Shown here in pieces: positions 16,567 through 37,850 of a stretch of DNA of 64,000 nucleotides. The DNA comes from Parcubacteria group bacterium. GTDB lineage: Bacteria > Patescibacteriota > Minisyncoccia > Phycocordibacterales > UBA2135. Below the pieces are notes generated by a model, which did not search any database, had not been told where the DNA came from, and saw only the letters and a program-made list of their open reading frames with translations. The stretch covers positions 75,320 through 139,319 of the forward strand of contig JACPBB010000001.1 in NCBI GenBank assembly GCA_016180525.1, in the 5' to 3' direction. The stretch's first letter is position 1. The number at the start of each line of letters is the position of its first letter. The position numbers and the translations under genes are program-made.

Positions 16567-16995
16567 ATGTCCAAAGAATCTGAAAGCATATTGCGTGGAG
16601 TGCGAGAAGCGTTTCTTATTGCCCAAGGGGAAATAACCTCCCCGCACGAAACTCGCATAACTGTGCATGGCGAACGGATGGTAACACGAACAATTGAATA
16701 CGGAGTGGAAACTCGCTGTGAAATAGGCCTTCTGCCGCGGTCGGAATGGAAACCATTCTGTTTTGAAGATAGAGAGGGCGCAAAAACACTAATTCTCTCT
16801 CCCGCAAAATGGGTCGAGATGCGAGATTCCTATCGCAGTTTAAGGAAAGATGGGAGTGTTTCATGGCTACACCTCGCAAGAGCTTGCCCCTTGAGTTTAT
16901 ATGATGACGTTCCTTATTTTGGTTTCAACGCTAACGTGCATTGCGGCTCGCTCACATTTGGCGAATGGGCAGAGCAAAACGGCATTAATCTTTAA
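16567..16995 (+). CDS. Hypothetical protein (142 aa), relatively GC-rich
   Basis: ORF preceded by TTGACA-containing promoter-like sequence and followed by terminator at 17006-17040. Confidence 0.5.
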   Translation: MSKESESILRGVREAFLIAQGEITSPHETRITVHGERMVTRTIEYGVETRCEIGLLPRSEWKPFCFEDREGAKTLILSPAKWVEMRDSYRSLRKDGSVSWLHLARACPLSLYDDVPYFGFNANVHCGSLTFGEWAEQNGINL

Positions 16996-27995: not shown

Positions 27996-29102
27996 TTAGG
28001 AGCCAATCAGCCGTGCGATATCATTGTATGTGACAAGCACCATAAGAAGAACAAGTATTGCAAACCCGGCCGCGTGAATTGTATTTACAATTTTGTAATT
28101 TACCGGAGAACCTTTTATTGCTTCAATTATAAGAAACAGCAAGCGCCCGCCGTCTAACGCCGGTATCGGAAGCAGATTCAAAACTCCCAAGTTAATTGAA
28201 ATAAACGCGACAAAGCTTAATAAATACGCAAACCCTAAATTTGTCGCGTCTCCCACCAAAGAAACAATGCCGACAGGCCCGGTAAGATTCGCAAGGTCGG
28301 CACTGCCTTTAAAAGCATCCGCAATAAGTCCTAAAAACGCAACAACTATCGCGCCGATAAGCGTTACGGTCATCTTCCCTCCCTCAAAAATTGCTTTAAA
28401 AAAAGGCAGCTGCACCAAGCCAATAGAATTCATTGCTATGCCAATGGCTGGCCTGTCACTGACAATACCTGAAACTGGCATGACAACAACACTCCCTTCT
28501 TTTTTTTCTTTCTCACGCTGGTATGTAAGTATGATTTCTTCTTTCTCGTGCCGTGCGATAAACTCTTGAGTTTCAAGCGCCGTCGGAAGAGAAAGTGTGT
28601 TGTTCTTTGCAGAAAGAGAGATAATAGTGTCTCCCGCCATAAGACCCGCGGCTTCCGCGGGAGAGTTCCGCTCTACTGCGGTAATAAGCAGCCGCTCGTC
28701 TTTTATCGTTGCCCCGCTTATATTTTCATCAACGGACATTGGCAGACCGGAAATAAATCCGACAGAAAATAAAATCCACGCGAGCAAAAAATTAAAGCCG
28801 ACTCCGGCAACAATCACTCCCGTCTGTACCCACTTTGGTTTATTTATAAAACTCCGAGCACTATCAGATCCATGCAATGATTCATCGTCTGGATTTTCTC
28901 CAAAAATTTTAACAAAACCCCCAAACGGAATCGCGTTCACTGTATATTCCGTCTCCCCTTTTTTAATGCCGAAAAGTTTGGGCGGAAACCCAAACCCAAA
29001 CTCATCAACTCGTATGCCGGACTTTTTCGCAACAATAAAATGCCCGAACTCGTGCACCAAAATGAGAACGGCAAGTACAATTAAAAAAATAATTATGTTC
29101 AT
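27996..29102 (-). CDS. rseP: RIP zinc metalloprotease RseP (site-2 protease, M50 family)
   Basis: HEFGH zinc motif in TM1, PDZ-like middle region, LDGG motif. Confidence 0.85.
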   Translation of the reverse strand: MNIIIFLIVLAVLILVHEFGHFIVAKKSGIRVDEFGFGFPPKLFGIKKGETEYTVNAIPFGGFVKIFGENPDDESLHGSDSARSFINKPKWVQTGVIVAGVGFNFLLAWILFSVGFISGLPMSVDENISGATIKDERLLITAVERNSPAEAAGLMAGDTIISLSAKNNTLSLPTALETQEFIARHEKEEIILTYQREKEKKEGSVVVMPVSGIVSDRPAIGIAMNSIGLVQLPFFKAIFEGGKMTVTLIGAIVVAFLGLIADAFKGSADLANLTGPVGIVSLVGDATNLGFAYLLSFVAFISINLGVLNLLPIPALDGGRLLFLIIEAIKGSPVNYKIVNTIHAAGFAILVLLMVLVTYNDIARLIGS

Positions 29103-29130
29103 GGGTGCTAGGTGTTAAAAAGCTTAGTGT

Positions 29131-29694
29131 CTAGGCAGAAATTTCTTTTTCTTTTTTCGCCACCATTTCGTTAAAGAGTTTATTCGCGTCATCAATCATT
29201 TTTTGCATTTCGTCTTTAAATCGAAATTTATCGTCTTCCGGAATTTCTCCATCCCGTTCTTTTTTCTGAATATCCTCCCACACGACATCACGCGCCTTGC
29301 GAGTGCGCACCCGCGCTTCTTCATGTTTTGTTTTCACAATTTTTAAAAGCGTTTCCCGTGTTTCAGAGGTAAGCTCCGGAAAAATGACCCGCACTCCGTC
29401 GCCAGATGTCGTCGTTGAAATGCCGAGCCCGGCGTTTATAATCGCCGTTTCAATCGGTTTAATCTGATTTTTATCCCACGGCGCGACGAGAATTGTCTTC
29501 GCATCAGAAACAGTCACGCTCGCCACATGATTTATGGGAACCTGTGAGCCGTATGAATCAACTTTTATACTGTCTAAAATAGAAGGTGTCGCCCGCCCCG
29601 TGCGAATATGTGAGAGTTCTTTTCCGAACCATTCTTTTATTTCTTCAAGTTCTTTTTTAAGCGATGAAAAATTGTACGTCATGTATTGAGGCAA
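29131..29694 (-). CDS. frr: Ribosome recycling factor
   Basis: 187 aa, conserved RRF arm and head domains (GRATPSILD...). Confidence 0.9.
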   Translation of the reverse strand: MPQYMTYNFSSLKKELEEIKEWFGKELSHIRTGRATPSILDSIKVDSYGSQVPINHVASVTVSDAKTILVAPWDKNQIKPIETAIINAGLGISTTTSGDGVRVIFPELTSETRETLLKIVKTKHEEARVRTRKARDVVWEDIQKKERDGEIPEDDKFRFKDEMQKMIDDANKLFNEMVAKKEKEISA

Positions 29695-29778
29695 TTAGTT
29701 GTTGGTAGTCAATTGTTAGTTTCGTGTAATATATACAGGATTGTAGCATAAAAGACCAAAAAATAAGGGCTTTTTAAG

Positions 29779-29807
29779 CTTGACAAACATATATTATTGT
29801 GATAAAA
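29779..29807 (+). promoter_or_regulatory. Near-consensus sigma70-type promoter TTGACA-17 bp-TAAAAT driving the 29900 ORF
   Basis: ttgacaaacatatattattgtgataaaat seen directly; GGGAGG RBS 7 nt before ATG at 29900. Confidence 0.6.
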
Positions 29808-29899
29808 TTAAAACGGTAAATGCTCAACTGCGTGAGCACATATTTTGTAATCATCTGAACAGCTCGCAGTAACTGTTCGTTTTATAGGGAGGTTTCCCC

Positions 29900-30442
29900 A
29901 TGAAGTGCTATACCGTGAAACGCTTCTACCCTCAACCCATGGTTGGTGGAGGAATCGAGATCACCCATGACAACAAATACGGAGACGCGGTGGTAATCGG
30001 CAAGGATTGGAACGATAAGCGAGGGTGGTACTCCGCCACCGCCCTCTGCAAGAAGTTCCCGCCCAAGACGGATGGCGGGGTGCTCTTCACCGCTCATCCG
30101 TTCTTCTGTCACCCCAAGAAGGAGGAGAGCAAACCATTCTGGGTTCTGCGAGACGAAAATGAGAAGCGCAAAGACGACACGCGCGCCCTCGTCGTCGTGG
30201 ACTGCTCGAACATTTCCGCTCACCACCTCAGACCTCACGGAATCTGGTGTACGCTTGAGGGACACATCGTCACCGTCGCCTCCGGTCGTACGATTAACGA
30301 TGACGGAGTCGTGTACGCGGAAGACCTCGTCATCATGTATCCGGGTTCATCCGCGTCCGTCCGATTCGTCGGAAACGAGCAGGAATACCTCCTCCGCTAC
30401 GACGACCCGAGCAAGGGGCCGCAACTCGAAGTGATGCCGTAA
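29900..30442 (+). CDS. Hypothetical protein (180 aa) encoded in a markedly GC-rich cassette
   Basis: strong promoter, RBS and terminator define the + strand ORF; no recognisable domain. Confidence 0.6.
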   Translation: MKCYTVKRFYPQPMVGGGIEITHDNKYGDAVVIGKDWNDKRGWYSATALCKKFPPKTDGGVLFTAHPFFCHPKKEESKPFWVLRDENEKRKDDTRALVVVDCSNISAHHLRPHGIWCTLEGHIVTVASGRTINDDGVVYAEDLVIMYPGSSASVRFVGNEQEYLLRYDDPSKGPQLEVMP

Positions 30443-30470
30443 CCGGCATTAACACGCCACTATCGCCTTC

Positions 30471-30504
30471 AGAGGCGACTCGCAAGAGTCGCCTCTTCTT
30501 TTTT
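30471..30504. terminator. Intrinsic terminator AGAGGCGACTC-gcaa-GAGTCGCCTCT + T-run
   Basis: seen directly. Confidence 0.65.
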
Positions 30505-30584
30505 CCAAAAATTGGGGAGCATAAGCGACCATAATTTTTGCCTGCCCCGTAGCCAGTGCGAAGCACTGTGGTACTGGGGAGAAT

Positions 30585-30634
30585 CCTCTCTTTTTGAGCT
30601 CATTTTAAATTTAGAAGAGTCTAAAAAGAGGGAG
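30585..30634. repeat. Intergenic palindromic element CTCTCTTTTTGAG...CTAAAAAGAGGGAG, paralogue of 10386-10435; immediately 3' of holB
   Basis: seen directly. Confidence 0.6.
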
Positions 30635-31324
30635 TCAAAGCGTAAGCGCCAAATGTTCAAAAATAAGTTTGATTGACGGTGAGTTAATCATGAGATCAGC
30701 TCGGGCACGCGCCATTTTTTTTAATTGAGCAATAGTTTGAATAGTGGCATTTCCAGCATTAAAATGCTCGGCAATATTTTTTTCAAGAGCGTTTAAAAAC
30801 AGAGTCGCCTGTTCTTTATTTTTCTCTTCAACTAAATCAGAAATAATTTTAAGACGCTTTTCGGGAGAAGATGTTAAAAACTGCTTTGCCTTAGTTACAG
30901 TATCAGTGGTATTTTTAGAAACATTGGTTTGTTTTACAATAACCACACGAGAGAGAAGCGTCGGAAATAACCTGGCTGTGGTCGGCGTGATAATAAAAAA
31001 ATGGGTTCCCTCTGTCGGCTCTTCAAATATTTTCAAAAGCGTGTTTTGGGCTTCTTCCGTAATCGTAAAAAACGAAATAATAAAAATTTTCTTTCCGCCA
31101 TCAATGCCTTTCCGCGCCTGCATTTCTTTAAGGGGCCTCGCGTCATCAATGCCAAATGTTTCAAAATCACGATGCCAAAAATCAGGATTTCCCCGCACAG
31201 AAACCTCGTGTTCTGTTTCTAAAAAAGAAAAAAGTTCCGGAATTATTTTTTCCTTACTCCCTTCAAGTATATATGCGTGATGCAAATTTTTAGAATATAG
31301 AGTATTGAGAGTAGAATGTAGCAT
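30635..31324 (-). CDS. holB: DNA polymerase III delta' subunit-like (clamp-loader AAA+ fold, no P-loop)
   Basis: HAYIL..., EEPT..T.FII, TLLSRV (SRC-like) motifs, 229 aa. Confidence 0.55.
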   Translation of the reverse strand: MLHSTLNTLYSKNLHHAYILEGSKEKIIPELFSFLETEHEVSVRGNPDFWHRDFETFGIDDARPLKEMQARKGIDGGKKIFIISFFTITEEAQNTLLKIFEEPTEGTHFFIITPTTARLFPTLLSRVVIVKQTNVSKNTTDTVTKAKQFLTSSPEKRLKIISDLVEEKNKEQATLFLNALEKNIAEHFNAGNATIQTIAQLKKMARARADLMINSPSIKLIFEHLALTL

Positions 31325-31368
31325 ATTCTTTTCGTATATTTCGAATCTTATTTCGTAGTTTCGAGTTA

Positions 31369-32382
31369 TTATCGTTTCGCAATAATGCTCTTTTTGTATA
31401 CATCTAAATGCTCAAGCGCGATGCCGGTGCCCTTCGCGACGCAGTAGAGGGCATCATCCGCAAGAATGGCTTTCACGCCTGTTCTGCGAAATACGAGTTC
31501 CGGAAAATTACGCAACTGCGATGTTCCTCCGGTCATGATAATTCCCTGGTCAATAATGTCCGCAGAGAGTTCCGGAGGAGTTTCTTGTAACACATCTTTT
31601 ATCGCTTTTACCATTTCACGCAGCTCAGGACTAATCGCTTTTACGATTTCATTTGTTCCAATTTCAGCGGTGCGCGGAAGCCCCGCAATAAAATCACGGC
31701 CCTTTATGGTAATTTTCAACTCTTCTTCAACGGGCACTGCTGAGCCAATTTTTATTTTCACGTCTTCCGCGGTTTTGTCGCCAATCGCCAGATTAAATGT
31801 TTTTTTGATATAGTCGGCTATCGCGGTATCAATTCTGTTCCCCGCACATTTTACCGACTTTGAGGCAACAATGCCGCCAAGAGAAATAACGGCAACATCC
31901 GTCGTGCCTCCGCCAATATCAACAATCATATGCCCATGCGCCGCGTGAATGGGAACCCCCGCGCCGATTGCCGCGAGTATCGGCTCTTTGACCACATATG
32001 CGTTTTTCGCACCCGCTTTGATTGCGGCCTCAATAACCGCTCTTCGTTCGGTAGATGAAACGCCGGCCGGCACTGAAATAAGCACATCGGGTTTAAAAAT
32101 ATTCCATTTACCGAGCGCTTTGTTTATGTAATACCGAAGCATCGCTTCCGTTACCCGATAATCGGCAATGACTCCATCTTTCATCGGGCGATATGCGATA
32201 ATCGTGTCGGGGGTTTTCCCAATCATGTCTTTTGCCTCAAGTCCCACAGCCAAAATTCTGTTGTCCTCAAGCGAAACCGCGACAACAGAGGGCTCGTTTA
32301 ACACAACGGCTTTTCCCGGCACGTAGACAAGTGTGTTTGCGGTACCGAGATCAATTCCTAATTTTTTTGAAAAAAAAGACAT
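31369..32382 (-). CDS. Second MreB/Mbl-family actin homologue
   Basis: GIDLGTANT...DIGGGTTD...; 337 aa. Confidence 0.85.
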   Translation of the reverse strand: MSFFSKKLGIDLGTANTLVYVPGKAVVLNEPSVVAVSLEDNRILAVGLEAKDMIGKTPDTIIAYRPMKDGVIADYRVTEAMLRYYINKALGKWNIFKPDVLISVPAGVSSTERRAVIEAAIKAGAKNAYVVKEPILAAIGAGVPIHAAHGHMIVDIGGGTTDVAVISLGGIVASKSVKCAGNRIDTAIADYIKKTFNLAIGDKTAEDVKIKIGSAVPVEEELKITIKGRDFIAGLPRTAEIGTNEIVKAISPELREMVKAIKDVLQETPPELSADIIDQGIIMTGGTSQLRNFPELVFRRTGVKAILADDALYCVAKGTGIALEHLDVYKKSIIAKR

Positions 32383-36520: not shown

Positions 36521-37063
36521 ATGGTGAAAATACTTCAAAAAGATGAAGGGGGGCTACGAGAAATTTCTAAGCCCGTGCCCATCGGCAATATTGATACTCC
36601 GCGCATCCAAAAAATAATCGCGGATATGAAAAAGGCAATGCATGGTGAGGATGATGCAGTGGCAATTGCCGCTCCACAAATCGGAGTGTTACTTCGTATA
36701 TTTATAGTATCTGGAAAAGTGTTTCTTTCAAAAGAAGAGATTGCAAAAAAAGAGGAGATAAAAAACCTGCCACCGGACTTGGTTTTTATAAATCCTGAAC
36801 TTTTAAGGTGCTCAAAAAAAGAAAAGTGGACTGAAGAAGGATGTTTGTCGGTGCGATGGCTCTATGGAGAAGTGAGGCGAAGTGAAAAAGCAACTGTTCG
36901 CGCGTATGATGAGAGTGGAAAATTATTTACCAGAGGAGCAAGCGGTATCCTCGCGCAAGTTTTTCAGCACGAGATAGAACACTTAGACGGAAAATTATTT
37001 ACTGACAAGGCGCGTAACATCCAAAACATTCCTCCAGAAAAAAACTTGACAAAAAGAAGGTAA
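36521..37063 (+). CDS. def: Peptide deformylase
   Basis: GIAAPQIG-like (AIAAPQIG), EGCLS, QHEIEHLDG motifs. Confidence 0.9.
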   Translation: MVKILQKDEGGLREISKPVPIGNIDTPRIQKIIADMKKAMHGEDDAVAIAAPQIGVLLRIFIVSGKVFLSKEEIAKKEEIKNLPPDLVFINPELLRCSKKEKWTEEGCLSVRWLYGEVRRSEKATVRAYDESGKLFTRGASGILAQVFQHEIEHLDGKLFTDKARNIQNIPPEKNLTKRR

Positions 37064-37084
37064 TTTGATAATATATCATTTGAG

Positions 37085-37850
37085 CCTAGCCAACTCCGGG
37101 TTAGAAGTGTTCAAGCACGTTCTAACCAGGCTGGATGCCTCGCGTGGGGTCCAAAAAGGGCTCAGGACACGCGAGGCCGCGGCGGGGACCCGGACGCAGA
37201 CGCAAACCTTGTTGACGCAACTGAGGACGCTGAGCGCCCGGGACCCCGCTCCAGCCCTGTTCTTTAACGAATATCAAAGAATGAACCCCGGTGTTGCCTC
37301 GGAGTAAACCGAGCAACTACGCCGGGAGAAGTATTTCCCCCGCGGGAATACTTCCCGCCGAGATGCCTTTTTGTCTCGGTCTTTACTCCCCGCCCCGATG
37401 ACGAAAACGTCGGGGCTTTTCATTTTATATGCATTTAGTATACTAACAATGGCCGGCGTGGGAGATAGTGTTCTTCATGTCCCCCAACATCAACCACCAT
37501 ACACAACAAATGAATAGCACGTGGTGTGCGATGTTGCGCCTCGACTTGATCGAGCGGAGATCCATAGACACCCTTCCGGATACGCCCTTGCCCAACTTCG
37601 GCCGCATGGTTTACCCAGCGGCCTTTTTGTTTTTGAAAAAGTAGTGATACAATAATATATGCAAGCGCAGAGTATGTGAATCTTTCGCGCCTCCCGCACG
37701 CCCCGCCGCTCCCTTCCGTGCCTATGGCACCCGATGCAGGGACAACCTGATGGAGAGAAAAGCCTCCCTAAGGAATGTGCAGGAGCTCATTGGGATTCCT
37801 TCTCTGCGCTCGCACCACCGGAAAAGCTATTCGCTTTCCGGTTTTTTAAC
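37085..37850 (+). ncRNA. GC-rich highly structured non-coding locus with four intrinsic-terminator-like hairpins (T-runs at ~37368, ~37417, ~37624, ~37842); candidate structured RNA gene(s), family unassigned
   Basis: sharp GC increase versus flanks, many perfect 8-10 bp stems (e.g. GCCTCGCGTG/CACGCGAGGC), no convincing ORF. Confidence 0.3.

What the first reader, a model, noticed from the sequence alone, without database searches (positions are those of the whole stretch)
29779..30504. Stand-alone GC-rich expression cassette (consensus promoter, RBS, 180-aa ORF, terminator) inserted between frr and holB
The segment is visibly much more GC-rich than the flanking AT-rich genes. It carries a near-consensus TTGACA-17-TAAAAT promoter, a GGGAGG RBS, a 180-aa ORF with no recognisable domain (MKCYTVKRFYPQPMVGGGIEITHDNKYG...) and a strong terminator. 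It is the only + strand unit in a long run of minus-strand core genes. This is the pattern expected of a horizontally acquired, highly expressed accessory gene.
Basis: seen in the sequence. Interest (0 to 1): 0.55.

Follow-up and report, generated by a model that had tools for sequence, protein, structure and literature searches.

The report
GC-rich orphan gene cassette in Paceibacteria
A small, strongly promoted and unusually GC-rich gene, wedged between two housekeeping genes of a Parcubacteria genome, encodes a fast-evolving protein of a rare, unannotated family; distant relatives of this protein sit inside CRISPR arrays, which hints at an unknown role in genetic conflict.

Summary
Window 29780-30505 is a self-contained + strand unit: a TTGACA-17-(TG)TAAAAT promoter, an ~85-nt leader, a GGGAGG RBS, a 180-codon ORF (29900-30442) and an 11-bp terminator. 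It is the most GC-rich stretch of the 64-kb window (GC3 0.73; C3 z=6.5).

The ORF is a real gene of a rare family with no Pfam, NCBIfam, PHROGs, PADLOC or PDB match. AlphaFold2 on the family alignment gives a confident all-beta model (pLDDT 92) with no fold match in PDB or BFVD.

It is not a recent import:
- A copy sits in the same holB|frr slot in another Paceibacteria species (42% identity; flanks 62-70%).
- 67 of 75 other relatives have holB abutting frr.
- An AT-rich promoter and two-hairpin leader are conserved in four lineages, all with C3-rich ORFs.

The protein diverges far faster than its neighbours (39% versus 84-91%).

Homologues in Poribacteria (hhalign 98.7%) occupy spacer slots of type III CRISPR arrays, flanked by repeats.

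Best reading: an old, strongly expressed accessory cassette, probably conflict-related. Its biochemical function is unknown.

The parts
29131..29694 (-). frr (ribosome recycling factor); lower boundary of the slot
   Evidence: Pfam RRF, E 1e-51. ORF listed.
29739..29747 (-). Inferred extended -10 (TGCTACAAT on the - strand) of a divergent frr promoter, back-to-back with the cassette promoter
   Evidence: Read from the sequence. Conserved as TGCTATAAT in L002 (alignment A3). Its function is inferred.
29780..29808 (+). Sigma-70-type promoter: TTGACA, 17 nt, TG-n-TAAAAT
   Evidence: 11/12, TG present. One of 4 sites scoring >=11/12 in the window. TTGACAAA...TGATAtAAT is conserved in L002, L086, L089 and L095.
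29815..29899 (+). 5' leader (~85 nt; the start point is inferred from the -10)
   Evidence: Covariance model R1, built from 5 leaders, finds only the cassette leaders in 911 kb (61-92 bits; next best 17 bits, E 0.16).
29821..29838 (+). Leader hairpin P1 (TGCTCA-actgcg-TGAGCA) followed by a U-rich tract and TTGTAATC
   Evidence: The core GCUC/GAGC is invariant. The outer pair is U-A here and G-C in L002; the inner pair is A-U here and G-C in L086/L089/L095.
29857..29878 (+). Leader hairpin P2 (GAACAG-ctcgcagtaa-CTGTTC) just upstream of the RBS
   Evidence: Recovered in the MFE fold of all 5 leaders. The stem is GAACAG/CUGUUC in the window and L002 and GCGGU(U)/(A)ACCGC in L086/L089/L095: five pairs changed on both sides, with the loop motif GCAG kept.
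29828..29832 (+). P1 loop CUGCG, proposed to pair with the P2 loop CGCAG (29865-29869) as a kissing interaction
   Evidence: Read from the sequences. The window has CUGCG:CGCAG; L002, L086, L089 and L095 have (C)UGCC:GGCAG. That is one compensatory G-C to C-G exchange. Inferred, not tested.
29887..29892 (+). Shine-Dalgarno GGGAGG, 7 nt before the ATG
29900..30442 (+). 180-aa ORF: a soluble all-beta protein of a rare unannotated family
   Evidence: - ORF and homologues.
- The N-terminus MKCFT is conserved family-wide.
- GC1/2/3 = 0.58/0.40/0.73.
- AF2 pLDDT 92.4.
- No hydrophobic segment: maximum KD19 0.85.
30471..30505 (+). Intrinsic terminator (11-bp stem, 4-nt loop, T-run)
   Evidence: I6, 100% complementary arms.
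30545..30596 (+). Second GC-rich hairpin followed by a T-run (back-up terminator or insulator facing the convergent holB)
   Evidence: Read from the sequence. A partial site is listed (30576-30588). There is no counterpart in L002.
30635..31324 (-). holB (DNA polymerase III delta'); upper boundary of the slot
   Evidence: Pfam DNA_pol3_delta2, E 2e-16.

Best explanation
The segment is a self-contained accessory gene cassette. It was inserted head-on into the otherwise contiguous holB-frr operon junction in an ancestor of this Parcubacteria/Paceibacteria lineage.

How it is expressed:
- Transcription starts near 29815 from a near-consensus extended -10 promoter (inferred).
- The ~85-nt leader folds into two hairpins whose loops are complementary. 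The comparative support for this is real but thin.
- A strong SD drives translation of a 180-aa soluble, cysteine-containing, all-beta protein.
- Two tandem terminators stop read-through into the convergent holB.

What the protein is:
- It belongs to a rare family with no annotated relative.
- It shows no catalytic-looking invariant residues (only Gly, Pro and Leu columns are invariant; Thr5, Arg95 and Trp116 are nearly so).
- It diverges several-fold faster than its neighbours, with deeply divergent alleles in a conserved slot.
- In Poribacteria its relatives occupy spacer positions of type III CRISPR arrays.

My commitment: it is an abundantly made, non-enzymatic binding protein engaged in a genetic-conflict or defence-related interaction, and the leader sets mRNA stability or translation.

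Shown: the anatomy, that the ORF is coding, family membership, the patchy distribution, the rate contrast and the CRISPR-array context of the homologues.
Inferred: the expression level, the leader's role, and the conflict-related binding function.
For: Anatomy and composition.

It is a real protein:
- Exhaustive phmmer gives 12 hits; profile searches give 9 and 17.
- AF2 with an 18-sequence alignment gives pLDDT 92.4 and pTM 0.90, against 43 for the single sequence.
- dN/dS is 0.42-0.70 in close pairs.
- The ORF RNA has no excess structure (z -0.75).

It is an old insertion in a cargo slot:
- L002 carries a homologue in the same place and orientation, with a conserved promoter, leader and divergent frr -10.
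- 67 of 75 relatives have a holB-frr gap of <=150 nt. The other gaps hold unrelated cargo, including an Eco57I-type R-M methylase.

The cassette behaves as a unit: the same promoter and leader head homologues beside the 23S rRNA gene in other Paceibacteria.

Rate contrast:
- L086 versus L089: ORF 39% identity, against 91% and 84% for neighbours.
- Window versus L002: 42%, against 62-70%.
- The same holds in Poribacteria: 42-44%, against 93-97%.

Conflict link:
- Five Poribacteria loci have the order Cas1 - array - gene(s) - SWIM - Cas2 - Cas6, with type III effector genes beyond in four (Csx19 and RAMP in L099 and L100, Cas10 in L099, RAMP/Cmr5 in L098). L084 ends soon after the family genes.
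- Each gene has a repeat 38 or 113-248 nt upstream. Most have another starting 1-2 nt after the stop; in two cases it starts 22-34 nt after, and none is detected after L099's second gene.
- A CPR-only profile against an array-embedded-only profile gives hhalign 98.7%, E 3e-16.
- L081 lies beside TraC/TraG genes.
Against: - No direct evidence of expression or of any activity.
- The family is absent from IMG/VR, INPHARED phages and PLSDB plasmids and from PADLOC. Nothing ties it to a known defence or anti-defence class.
- The 64-kb window holds no CRISPR array, and I noticed no cas genes, though the window's ORFs were not systematically scanned.
- The CRISPR association comes from one set of related Poribacteria genomes. 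Their HemN proteins are 94% identical, so it is effectively one or two independent observations.
- Leader folds are not more stable than shuffles, except in L002 (z -0.57, -3.06, -0.43, -1.39, +0.05).
- Covariation rests on three independent lineages.
- The persistent C3 excess is not explained by this model.
Confidence: 0.5

Rival explanations
1. One reading: a recently acquired foreign gene from a GC-rich donor, not yet ameliorated and expressed from a captured strong promoter.
For: - GC3 is 0.73 and C3 0.46, far outside the host range.
- The gene is absent from 73 of 75 related loci.
- The family occurs in unrelated phyla: Poribacteria, Paceibacteria and others.
Against: - An orthologous copy sits in the same slot in L002, with a conserved promoter, leader and junction.
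- The promoter and leader are conserved in four lineages at two loci.
- All CPR copies keep a high C3 although dS between them is 1.3-2.4.
- There are no mobility genes, no tRNA and no significant flanking direct repeats.
- The Poribacteria copies are not GC-rich.
Confidence: 0.1
2. An emancipated CRISPR-array cargo. The ancestral unit was repeat - short leader hairpin - SD - gene. The CPR leader element P1 + (A)UUGAAA(U/C) would be a relic solitary CRISPR repeat that is still bound or cleaved by a Cas6-like factor, or now serves only as a 5' stabiliser.
For: - The architecture is the same in both clades: a hairpin, then ATTGAAAC (Poribacteria repeat 3' end), ATTGAAAT (L086/L089/L095), TTTGAAAC (L002) or TTTGTAAT (window); then a second hairpin, an A/U-rich tract, the SD and the ATG 38-47 nt later.
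- Solitary repeat units directly downstream of promoters are a described class (PMC10651486).
Against: - Sequence similarity is limited to 5-7 of 8 nt plus a generic hairpin.
- ATTGAAAY occurs at chance frequency in the window (18 found, 14 expected).
- P1 lies 4-6 nt further from the motif than in the Poribacteria repeat.
- Model R1 does not hit the Poribacteria leaders.
- The P1 16-mer never occurs in arrays in IMG/VR.
- No CRISPR-Cas is known in the host.
Confidence: 0.2
3. A toxin or abortive-infection effector, or an addiction module, whose synthesis is held in check by the leader. In Poribacteria the check would be Cas6 or type III processing, as in a CreTA-like guard.
For: - Placement inside cas loci, flanked by degenerate repeats, recalls CreTA and crRNA-like regulators.
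- Tandem paralogues and hyperdivergent alleles are present.
Against: - In the window the gene has a near-consensus constitutive-looking promoter and a strong SD. There is no adjacent antitoxin ORF and no cas genes.
- There are no membrane segments and no nuclease or HEPN-type motifs.
- CreT toxins are small RNAs (PMC9458426, abstract).
Confidence: 0.12
4. A lineage-specific abundant structural or housekeeping protein of the episymbiont (for example a cytoplasmic scaffold), with no conflict role. Its fast evolution would reflect low constraint.
For: - Strong expression signals, placement among core genes, and no defence-database hit.
- dN/dS is below 1.
Against: - The distribution is extremely patchy (2 of 75 loci at this slot; about 30 clusters among 5.8 billion proteins).
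- Deeply divergent alleles sit in conserved contexts in two phyla.
- Homologues are embedded in CRISPR arrays.
Confidence: 0.12
5. The GC-rich island is a structured non-coding RNA and the ORF is a by-product of GC richness, or the segment is an assembly chimera.
For: - GC-rich islands in AT-rich genomes are often RNA genes.
- Other frames also carry 120-127-aa ORFs.
- A true structured RNA-like island exists 7 kb away.
Against: - The ORF region has z -0.75, against -9.5 for the 37-kb island.
- GC1/2/3 periodicity is present.
- There is protein-level homology across phyla and a confident AF2 model.
- There is no Rfam hit.
- The same slot is filled in an independent assembly, and related cassettes lie on at least 31 contigs carrying P0004 or P0005.
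Confidence: 0.02

Closest known systems
Solitary repeat units (SRUs) / RNA anti-CRISPRs with adjacent acr genes (Camara-Wilpert et al. 2023, PMC10651486)
   Same: A strong promoter is followed immediately by a repeat-like hairpin element and then a small, fast-evolving protein gene with no known domain.
   Different: - The cassette is chromosomal, between core genes, not on a phage or plasmid.
- The family is absent from IMG/VR, INPHARED and PLSDB.
- No cognate CRISPR repeat is known.
- The resemblance to a repeat is only 5-7 of 8 nt plus a hairpin.
- There is no Aca-type regulator.
CreTA and crRNA-like regulatory mini-arrays in CRISPR-cas loci (PMC9458426; bioRxiv 10.1101/2023.03.03.530964)
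   Same: In the Poribacteria relatives, non-spacer cargo is bracketed by partly degenerate CRISPR repeats inside a cas locus.
   Different: - The cargo is a ~190-aa protein gene (about 600-850 nt between repeats), not a short spacer-like guide or a small RNA toxin.
- The system is type III. The Shmakov et al. preprint found no conserved or targeted mini-arrays in type III and judged them degraded repeats.
- The window copy has no cas context at all.
Type III CRISPR accessory genes (CARF/SAVED effectors, Csx families)
   Same: Neighbourhood of Cas1, Cas2, Cas6, Csx19, RAMP and Cas10 genes in Poribacteria.
   Different: - There is no CARF, SAVED, HEPN or other known domain.
- The gene lies within the array rather than in the cas operon.
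- It stands alone in Paceibacteria.
Variable cargo slots (hotspots/islets) between conserved core genes, as in defence islands
   Same: The holB|frr junction carries different cargo in 8 of 75 Paceibacteria loci, including an Eco57I-type R-M methylase.
   Different: The cargo is a single gene with its own conserved promoter and leader. No integrase or att-like repeats are present.
Uncharacterized protein A0A1X9SKG1 of Sulfolobus islandicus rod-shaped virus 11 (BFVD model)
   Same: Best structural match: a 184-aa all-beta protein, Foldseek probability 0.91.
   Different: TM is only 0.42, E 0.088 and identity 8%. It is itself uncharacterized, so this is a lead only.

Membership tests
Any curated protein family (Pfam-A, NCBIfam, PHROGs, PADLOC) or solved structure | Significant profile match of the protein or its relatives | tested here: not met
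   - No hit for the window protein.
- The 13-18 family members scanned individually gave only scattered hits at E >= 0.0025.
- PDB sequence profiles: best E 0.46-1.4.
- Foldseek against PDB: best E 0.32, TM <= 0.23.
Horizontally acquired genomic islet | Atypical composition relative to the host | tested here: met
   GC 0.57 against 0.43; GC3 0.73; C3 z 6.5.
Horizontally acquired genomic islet | Patchy presence among relatives at a conserved junction | tested here: met
   67 of 75 loci have holB abutting frr. Only L002 shares the gene.
Horizontally acquired genomic islet | Signs of recent mobility (integrase, tRNA target, flanking direct repeats, a near-identical copy elsewhere) | tested here: not met
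   - No significant flanking repeats.
- The only tRNA is at 41.7 kb.
- The nearest homologue is 45% identical.
- An orthologous copy is present in L002.
Anti-CRISPR locus (Acr, with or without a Racr/SRU) | Encoded on a phage, prophage or plasmid | tested here: not met
   The flanks are frr, holB, mreB and rseP. There are no homologues in three mobile-element collections.
Anti-CRISPR locus (Acr, with or without a Racr/SRU) | The solitary repeat matches the repeat of a targeted CRISPR-Cas system | tested here: inconclusive
   - The leader carries a hairpin plus 5-7 of 8 nt of the common AUUGAAAC handle.
- The motif occurs at chance frequency.
- No array with the P1 hairpin was found in IMG/VR.
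Anti-CRISPR locus (Acr, with or without a Racr/SRU) | Inhibition of CRISPR interference | not testable with these tools
   Needs an experiment.
CreTA-type CRISPR-regulated toxin-antitoxin | Located within a cas locus, with repeat-like elements flanking a guide that matches the toxin promoter; the toxin is a small RNA | tested here: not met
   The window has no cas genes and no array. In Poribacteria the repeats flank a protein gene, not a short guide.
Type III CRISPR accessory effector | cOA-sensing CARF/SAVED domain, or another recognised Csx/Csm domain | tested here: not met
   No such domain in any member.
Known cis-regulatory RNA (riboswitch, leader or attenuator family in Rfam) | Covariance-model match to the 5' leader | tested here: not met
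   Rfam E-value scan of 29000-31500 returned only rliF (E 0.42) and suhB at the terminator (E 0.08). Gathering-threshold scans of the window and of 9 related loci found nothing in the leaders.
Bacterial sigma-70 promoter / intrinsic terminator | Two hexamers with 16-18-nt spacing; a GC-rich stem followed by a T-run | tested here: met
   11/12 with TG, and an 11-bp stem with a T-run. These are consensus matches only; activity was not measured.

The most novel reading that the evidence does not exclude
The family represents protein-coding cargo of CRISPR arrays.
- In Poribacteria, whole genes (5' leader, SD, ORF, ending within ~1-34 nt of the stop codon) occupy spacer slots between repeats at the trailer end of type III arrays (one locus has an adjacent RT-Cas1).
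- Cas6 processing of the pre-crRNA would therefore release an mRNA carrying a crRNA 5' handle.
- The Paceibacteria cassette in this window would be an emancipated descendant that has gained its own promoter.
- Its conserved leader (hairpin + UUGAAAU/C, a second hairpin, a kissing loop) would be the relic of the repeat-leader unit.
- The hyperdivergent alleles and the maintained C3-rich coding sequence would reflect an ongoing arms race.
Probability: 0.2. Interest if true: 0.85.

Novelty: categorically new. Interest (0 to 1): 0.62.

Why it matters
If the reading is right, this is an entry point to an unstudied protein family with four unusual properties:
- a confidently predicted fold with no match in the libraries that could be searched;
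- maintenance as deeply divergent alleles in conserved genomic slots in two unrelated phyla;
- a private, conserved, structured 5' leader in Paceibacteria;
- relatives embedded as "giant spacers" between CRISPR repeats in Poribacteria, an arrangement I did not find described in the paper library searched.

Possible consequences:
- It could reveal a new way in which CRISPR arrays carry and process protein-coding cargo.
- It could reveal a new conflict-related factor in the ultra-small, host-dependent CPR bacteria, where about half of all genes are unannotated.
- The maintained synonymous C3 excess in an AT-rich host is a clean natural case for testing what keeps single genes compositionally foreign.

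Tried and rejected
1. Known domains. Pfam, NCBIfam, PHROGs and PADLOC on the protein and on 13-18 relatives, and PDB sequence profiles, gave nothing.
3. Phage or plasmid origin. tblastn against INPHARED and PLSDB, and three IMG/VR scans, found no relatives.
4. Structured-RNA explanation of the GC island. Rejected (z -0.75; no Rfam match).
5. Translational selection as the cause of C3 richness. Rejected: L25, frr, L10 and L12 have C3 0.12-0.18.
6. Leader as a regulon-wide motif. Model R1 finds it only in front of this gene family.
7. Leader thermodynamic stability. Not significant except in L002.
8. The MAFFT and CM alignments of the leaders are not structure-consistent for the window and L002. 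Pair counts were therefore made by hand from the sequences, not with the count of structure pairs.
9. Target-site duplication. The 17-nt (82%) and 19-nt (84%) direct repeats around the cassette are at chance level.
10. The P1 hairpin as a CRISPR repeat. The 16-mer occurs only singly in 37 IMG/VR contigs.
11. Domain fusions. The 833-aa relative P0012 has two tandem family domains and a C-terminal region with no Pfam match, on a 3-kb contig.
12. The first attempt at a metagenome scan with the broad alignment failed for lack of conserved stretches. The narrower alignment returned only lineages already seen plus one variant.
Full report
**1. Observation**

The unit is exactly as described.
- Promoter: TTGACA (29780-29785), 17 nt, TAAAAT (29803-29808), with an extended -10 TG. 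It scores 11/12. Only four sites in both strands of the 64-kb window reach 11/12, and this is the only one with the TG.
- RBS: GGGAGG lies 7 nt before the ATG at 29900.
- ORF: it runs to 30442 (180 aa).
- Terminators: an 11-bp, 7-GC stem with a T-run follows at 30471-30505. A second hairpin with a T-run lies at ~30545-30596.
- Composition: the three most GC-rich 500-nt windows of the whole 64 kb all lie here (0.55-0.58, against a mean of 0.426 and sd 0.043). The excess is synonymous. GC1/GC2/GC3 are 0.58/0.40/0.73, against GC3 of 0.29-0.59 for the other long ORFs likely to be genes. Third-position C is 0.46, against 0.18 +/- 0.043 (z 6.5), and T3 is 0.13.
- Flanks: RRF and DNA pol III delta', with MreB and RseP beyond.
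- Strand: it is the only + strand gene between 17.0 and 34.5 kb. An unassigned 142-aa + ORF lies at 16567-16995.

**2. Is the ORF a gene?**

Yes.
- The word-indexed search found only the protein itself: MAG Parcubacteria HYT93_00550, on a 344,533-bp contig.
- The exhaustive phmmer search of 1.84 billion representatives found 12 relatives. Profile searches found 9 and 17.
- The N-terminus M-K/R-C-F/Y-T is conserved across the family. The start at 29900 is therefore right, and the deposited 167-aa annotation (start at M14) is probably short.
- AlphaFold2 gives pLDDT 43 from the single sequence and pLDDT 92.4, pTM 0.90 from the 18-sequence family alignment. The model has 14 beta strands.
- The ORF RNA is no more structured than shuffles (z -0.75). 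A neighbouring non-coding GC island has z -9.5.
- Close allele pairs have dN/dS of 0.42-0.70.
- The protein has no hydrophobic segment (maximum KD19 0.85).

**3. What family?**

None that is annotated.
- Pfam, NCBIfam, PHROGs and PADLOC gave nothing for the protein or for 13-18 relatives.
- PDB sequence profiles gave nothing.
- Foldseek against PDB gave a best E of 0.32 with TM <= 0.23.
- BFVD gave only a weak match to an uncharacterized SIRV11 protein (probability 0.91, TM 0.42).
- Only Gly, Pro and Leu columns are invariant; T5, R95 and W116 are nearly so. This argues for a binding or structural protein rather than an enzyme (inference).

**4. Distribution at this locus**

- Of 80 Paceibacteria loci fetched through Frr, 75 show both holB and frr. 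In 67 the gap is <=150 nt.
- Eight have inserts. Only L002 (Frr ~70% identical) carries a homologue, in the same orientation.
- The others carry unrelated cargo: an Eco57I-type R-M methylase plus a partner in L007, a sortase in L072, a hydrolase-like protein in L003, and unknowns.
- The junction is therefore a recurrent cargo slot.
- The window and L002 also share the cassette promoter, parts of the leader, and an inferred divergent extended -10 for frr (TGCTAyAAT). This points to one old insertion rather than two events.
- No integrase, tRNA or significant flanking repeat is present.

**5. A cassette with a private leader**

- Closer relatives P0004 and P0005 lie in other Paceibacteria, beside the 5' end of the 23S rRNA gene and convergent with a 200-206-aa gene. 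P0004 is seen on 21 contigs and P0005 on 10.
- Although the proteins are only 33-45% identical, the upstream DNA is conserved. The shared elements, in order, are:
  - TTGACAAA, a spacer, then TGATAtAAT;
  - hairpin P1;
  - a U-rich tract with (A)TTGAAA(T/C), which is TTTGTAAT in the window;
  - hairpin P2;
  - an A/U-rich tract, the SD and the ATG.
- P1 keeps a GCUC/GAGC core with different compensated extra pairs.
- The P2 stem is GAACAG/CUGUUC in the window and L002, and GCGGU(U)/(A)ACCGC in the others. Five pairs are changed on both sides, and the loop keeps GCAG.
- The two loops are complementary: CUGCG:CGCAG in the window and CUGCC:GGCAG elsewhere, which is one compensatory exchange. This suggests a kissing interaction.
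- Model R1 finds these leaders and nothing else in 911 kb of related DNA (61-92 bits, against 17 bits for the next best). Rfam has no match.
- Caveats. There are only three independent lineages. MFE z-scores are weak except for L002. The automatic alignments are not structure-consistent, so the pair counts are by hand.

**6. Composition is maintained, not imported**

- All Paceibacteria copies show the same bias: C3 0.39-0.46 and T3 0.09-0.16. Their neighbours, including ribosomal proteins L10 and L12, have C3 of 0.14-0.28.
- L25 and frr in the window have C3 of 0.12-0.15.
- Synonymous sites between the copies are saturated (dS 1.3-2.4). The promoter and leader are AT-rich.
- Recent transfer, translational selection of the host type, and RNA structure therefore all fail as explanations. 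This remains unexplained.
- Candidate causes are U-avoidance in the mRNA, biased gene conversion linked to allele exchange, or repeated re-import by recombination in the conserved flanks.
- The Poribacteria copies have host-like composition.

**7. Hyperdivergence**

| Comparison | Family gene | Neighbours |
|---|---|---|
| L086 vs L089 | 39% | 91%, 84% and 55% |
| Window vs L002 | 42% | 62-70% |
| Poribacteria L082 vs L099/L100 | 42-44% | HemN 94%, Cas2 93-97% |

- Between L086 and L089, blastn aligns the flanks and the leader (72-87%) but not the ORF.
- L096 looks like a mosaic of the L095 and L089 alleles, judged by eye from the translations.
- In Poribacteria, dN/dS is 0.41-0.65.
- Deeply divergent alleles in conserved slots, tandem paralogues and a double-domain fusion (P0012) are typical of genes in genetic conflict (inference).

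**8. CRISPR-array relatives**

- Five Poribacteria loci were examined. The taxon comes from a named member of the neighbouring HemN cluster.
- The loci share the order Cas1 (in one locus RT plus Cas1), CRISPR array, one or two family genes, a SWIM protein, Cas2 and Cas6. Type III effector genes follow in four of them: Csx19 and RAMP in L099 and L100, Cas10 in L099, and RAMP with Cmr5 in L098. L084 ends soon after the family genes.
- Every family gene is preceded by a repeat (GTTTGGATGGAGTTTCCCGTTTGAAGGGAATTGAAAC). The repeat ends 38 nt before the ATG, or 113-248 nt in a long-leader variant.
- Most genes are followed by a partly degenerate repeat starting 1-2 nt after the stop codon. In two cases it starts 22-34 nt after, and none is detected after the second gene of L099.
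- The genes thus sit in spacer positions at the trailer end, co-oriented with array transcription. The repeat 3' end ATTGAAAC is the usual 5' handle; this rests on established knowledge.
- A profile of the five Paceibacteria-subfamily proteins (the window protein plus P0002-P0005) matches a profile of only the array-embedded proteins with hhalign probability 98.7%, E 3e-16, over 163 columns.
- I found no description of such array-borne protein genes in the paper library. A survey of repeat-like elements judged type III mini-arrays to be degraded repeats.
- These loci are related to one another, so the association is effectively one or two independent observations.
- Other relatives lie beside TraC/TraG genes (L081) or an infB operon (L083).

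**9. Interpretation**

- Best-supported: an old, self-contained accessory cassette in a cargo slot. It makes, probably abundantly, a fast-evolving non-enzymatic beta protein with a conflict-related role, and a structured leader tunes stability or translation (confidence 0.5).
The gene is accessory, compositionally foreign and has strong signals.
- Most novel reading not excluded: the cassette descends from CRISPR-array cargo, and its leader is a relic repeat unit (probability 0.2). The shared architecture supports it. The motif being at chance level, the different hairpin spacing, and the absence of a known CRISPR-Cas in the host weaken it.

**10. Verdict**

This is a real feature, not an artefact. 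It has no known family and its function is unknown. It has several unusual and mutually reinforcing properties. Interest is 0.62. The novelty rating "categorically new" is by exclusion, and is provisional until a full fold search and expression data are available.

Noticed in passing
window 37040-37430 (+): A TTGACA-17-(TG)ATAATAT-type promoter is followed by a ~357-nt GC-rich stretch (0.52-0.55). The stretch has no convincing ORF and ends in a hairpin with a T-run. Its MFE is -162.8 kcal/mol against -118 +/- 4.7 for shuffles (z -9.5). It has no Rfam family at the gathering or E-value threshold, and ARAGORN finds no tmRNA. It looks like an unassigned structured ncRNA.
   Followed up: partly
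window 37440-37640 (+): A second short GC-richer unit without an ORF ends in a terminator-like hairpin. That hairpin gives a weak suhB/mmgR-type Rfam hit (27.7 bits, below gathering). Unassigned.
   Followed up: no
L082 5558-7453; L084 4372-7536; L098 7171-8605; L099 7630-8612; L100 2196-4194: In Poribacteria type III CRISPR arrays, whole protein genes (homologues of the window ORF, one or two per array) occupy spacer positions. An intact repeat ends 38 or 113-248 nt upstream of each gene. A degenerate repeat usually starts 1-2 nt after the stop, sometimes 22-34 nt. The 38-nt leader is conserved between loci.
   Followed up: partly
L007 2016-4252; L072 3735-4918; L003 1591-2442; L021, L070, L080 gaps: In other Paceibacteria the same holB|frr junction holds unrelated cargo: an Eco57I-type R-M methylase plus a 225-aa partner, a sortase plus a 160-aa protein, an alpha/beta-hydrolase-like protein, and unknown small ORFs. 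The junction is a recurrent insertion slot.
   Followed up: partly
window 29900-29938: The deposited annotation (HYT93_00550, 167 aa) starts at Met14. The family-wide conserved N-terminus MKCFT shows that the true start is 13 codons upstream, at 29900.
   Followed up: yes
L086 2178-2798 (-) and L089 2196-2798 (-): The 200-206-aa gene convergent with the cassette in the 23S-proximal context is also fast-evolving: 55% identity, against 84-91% for the next genes. It has no Pfam match and may be a functional partner.
   Followed up: no
window 29848-29866 and 30685-30703: A 19-nt segment spans the leader linker and the 5' arm of P2 (TAATCATCTGAACAGCTCG). It recurs at 84% identity inside the 3' end of holB. 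My rough estimate puts it near the chance level (about 0.2 expected), and it was not pursued.
   Followed up: no
L097 413-2914: An 833-aa relative (P0012) has two tandem family domains followed by a ~450-aa region with no Pfam match. It lies on a 3-kb contig, so there is no context.
   Followed up: partly
L001 1-541: The closest relative by Frr (81% identity) has a contig that ends exactly at the frr start. Whether it carries the cassette therefore cannot be seen.
   Followed up: no
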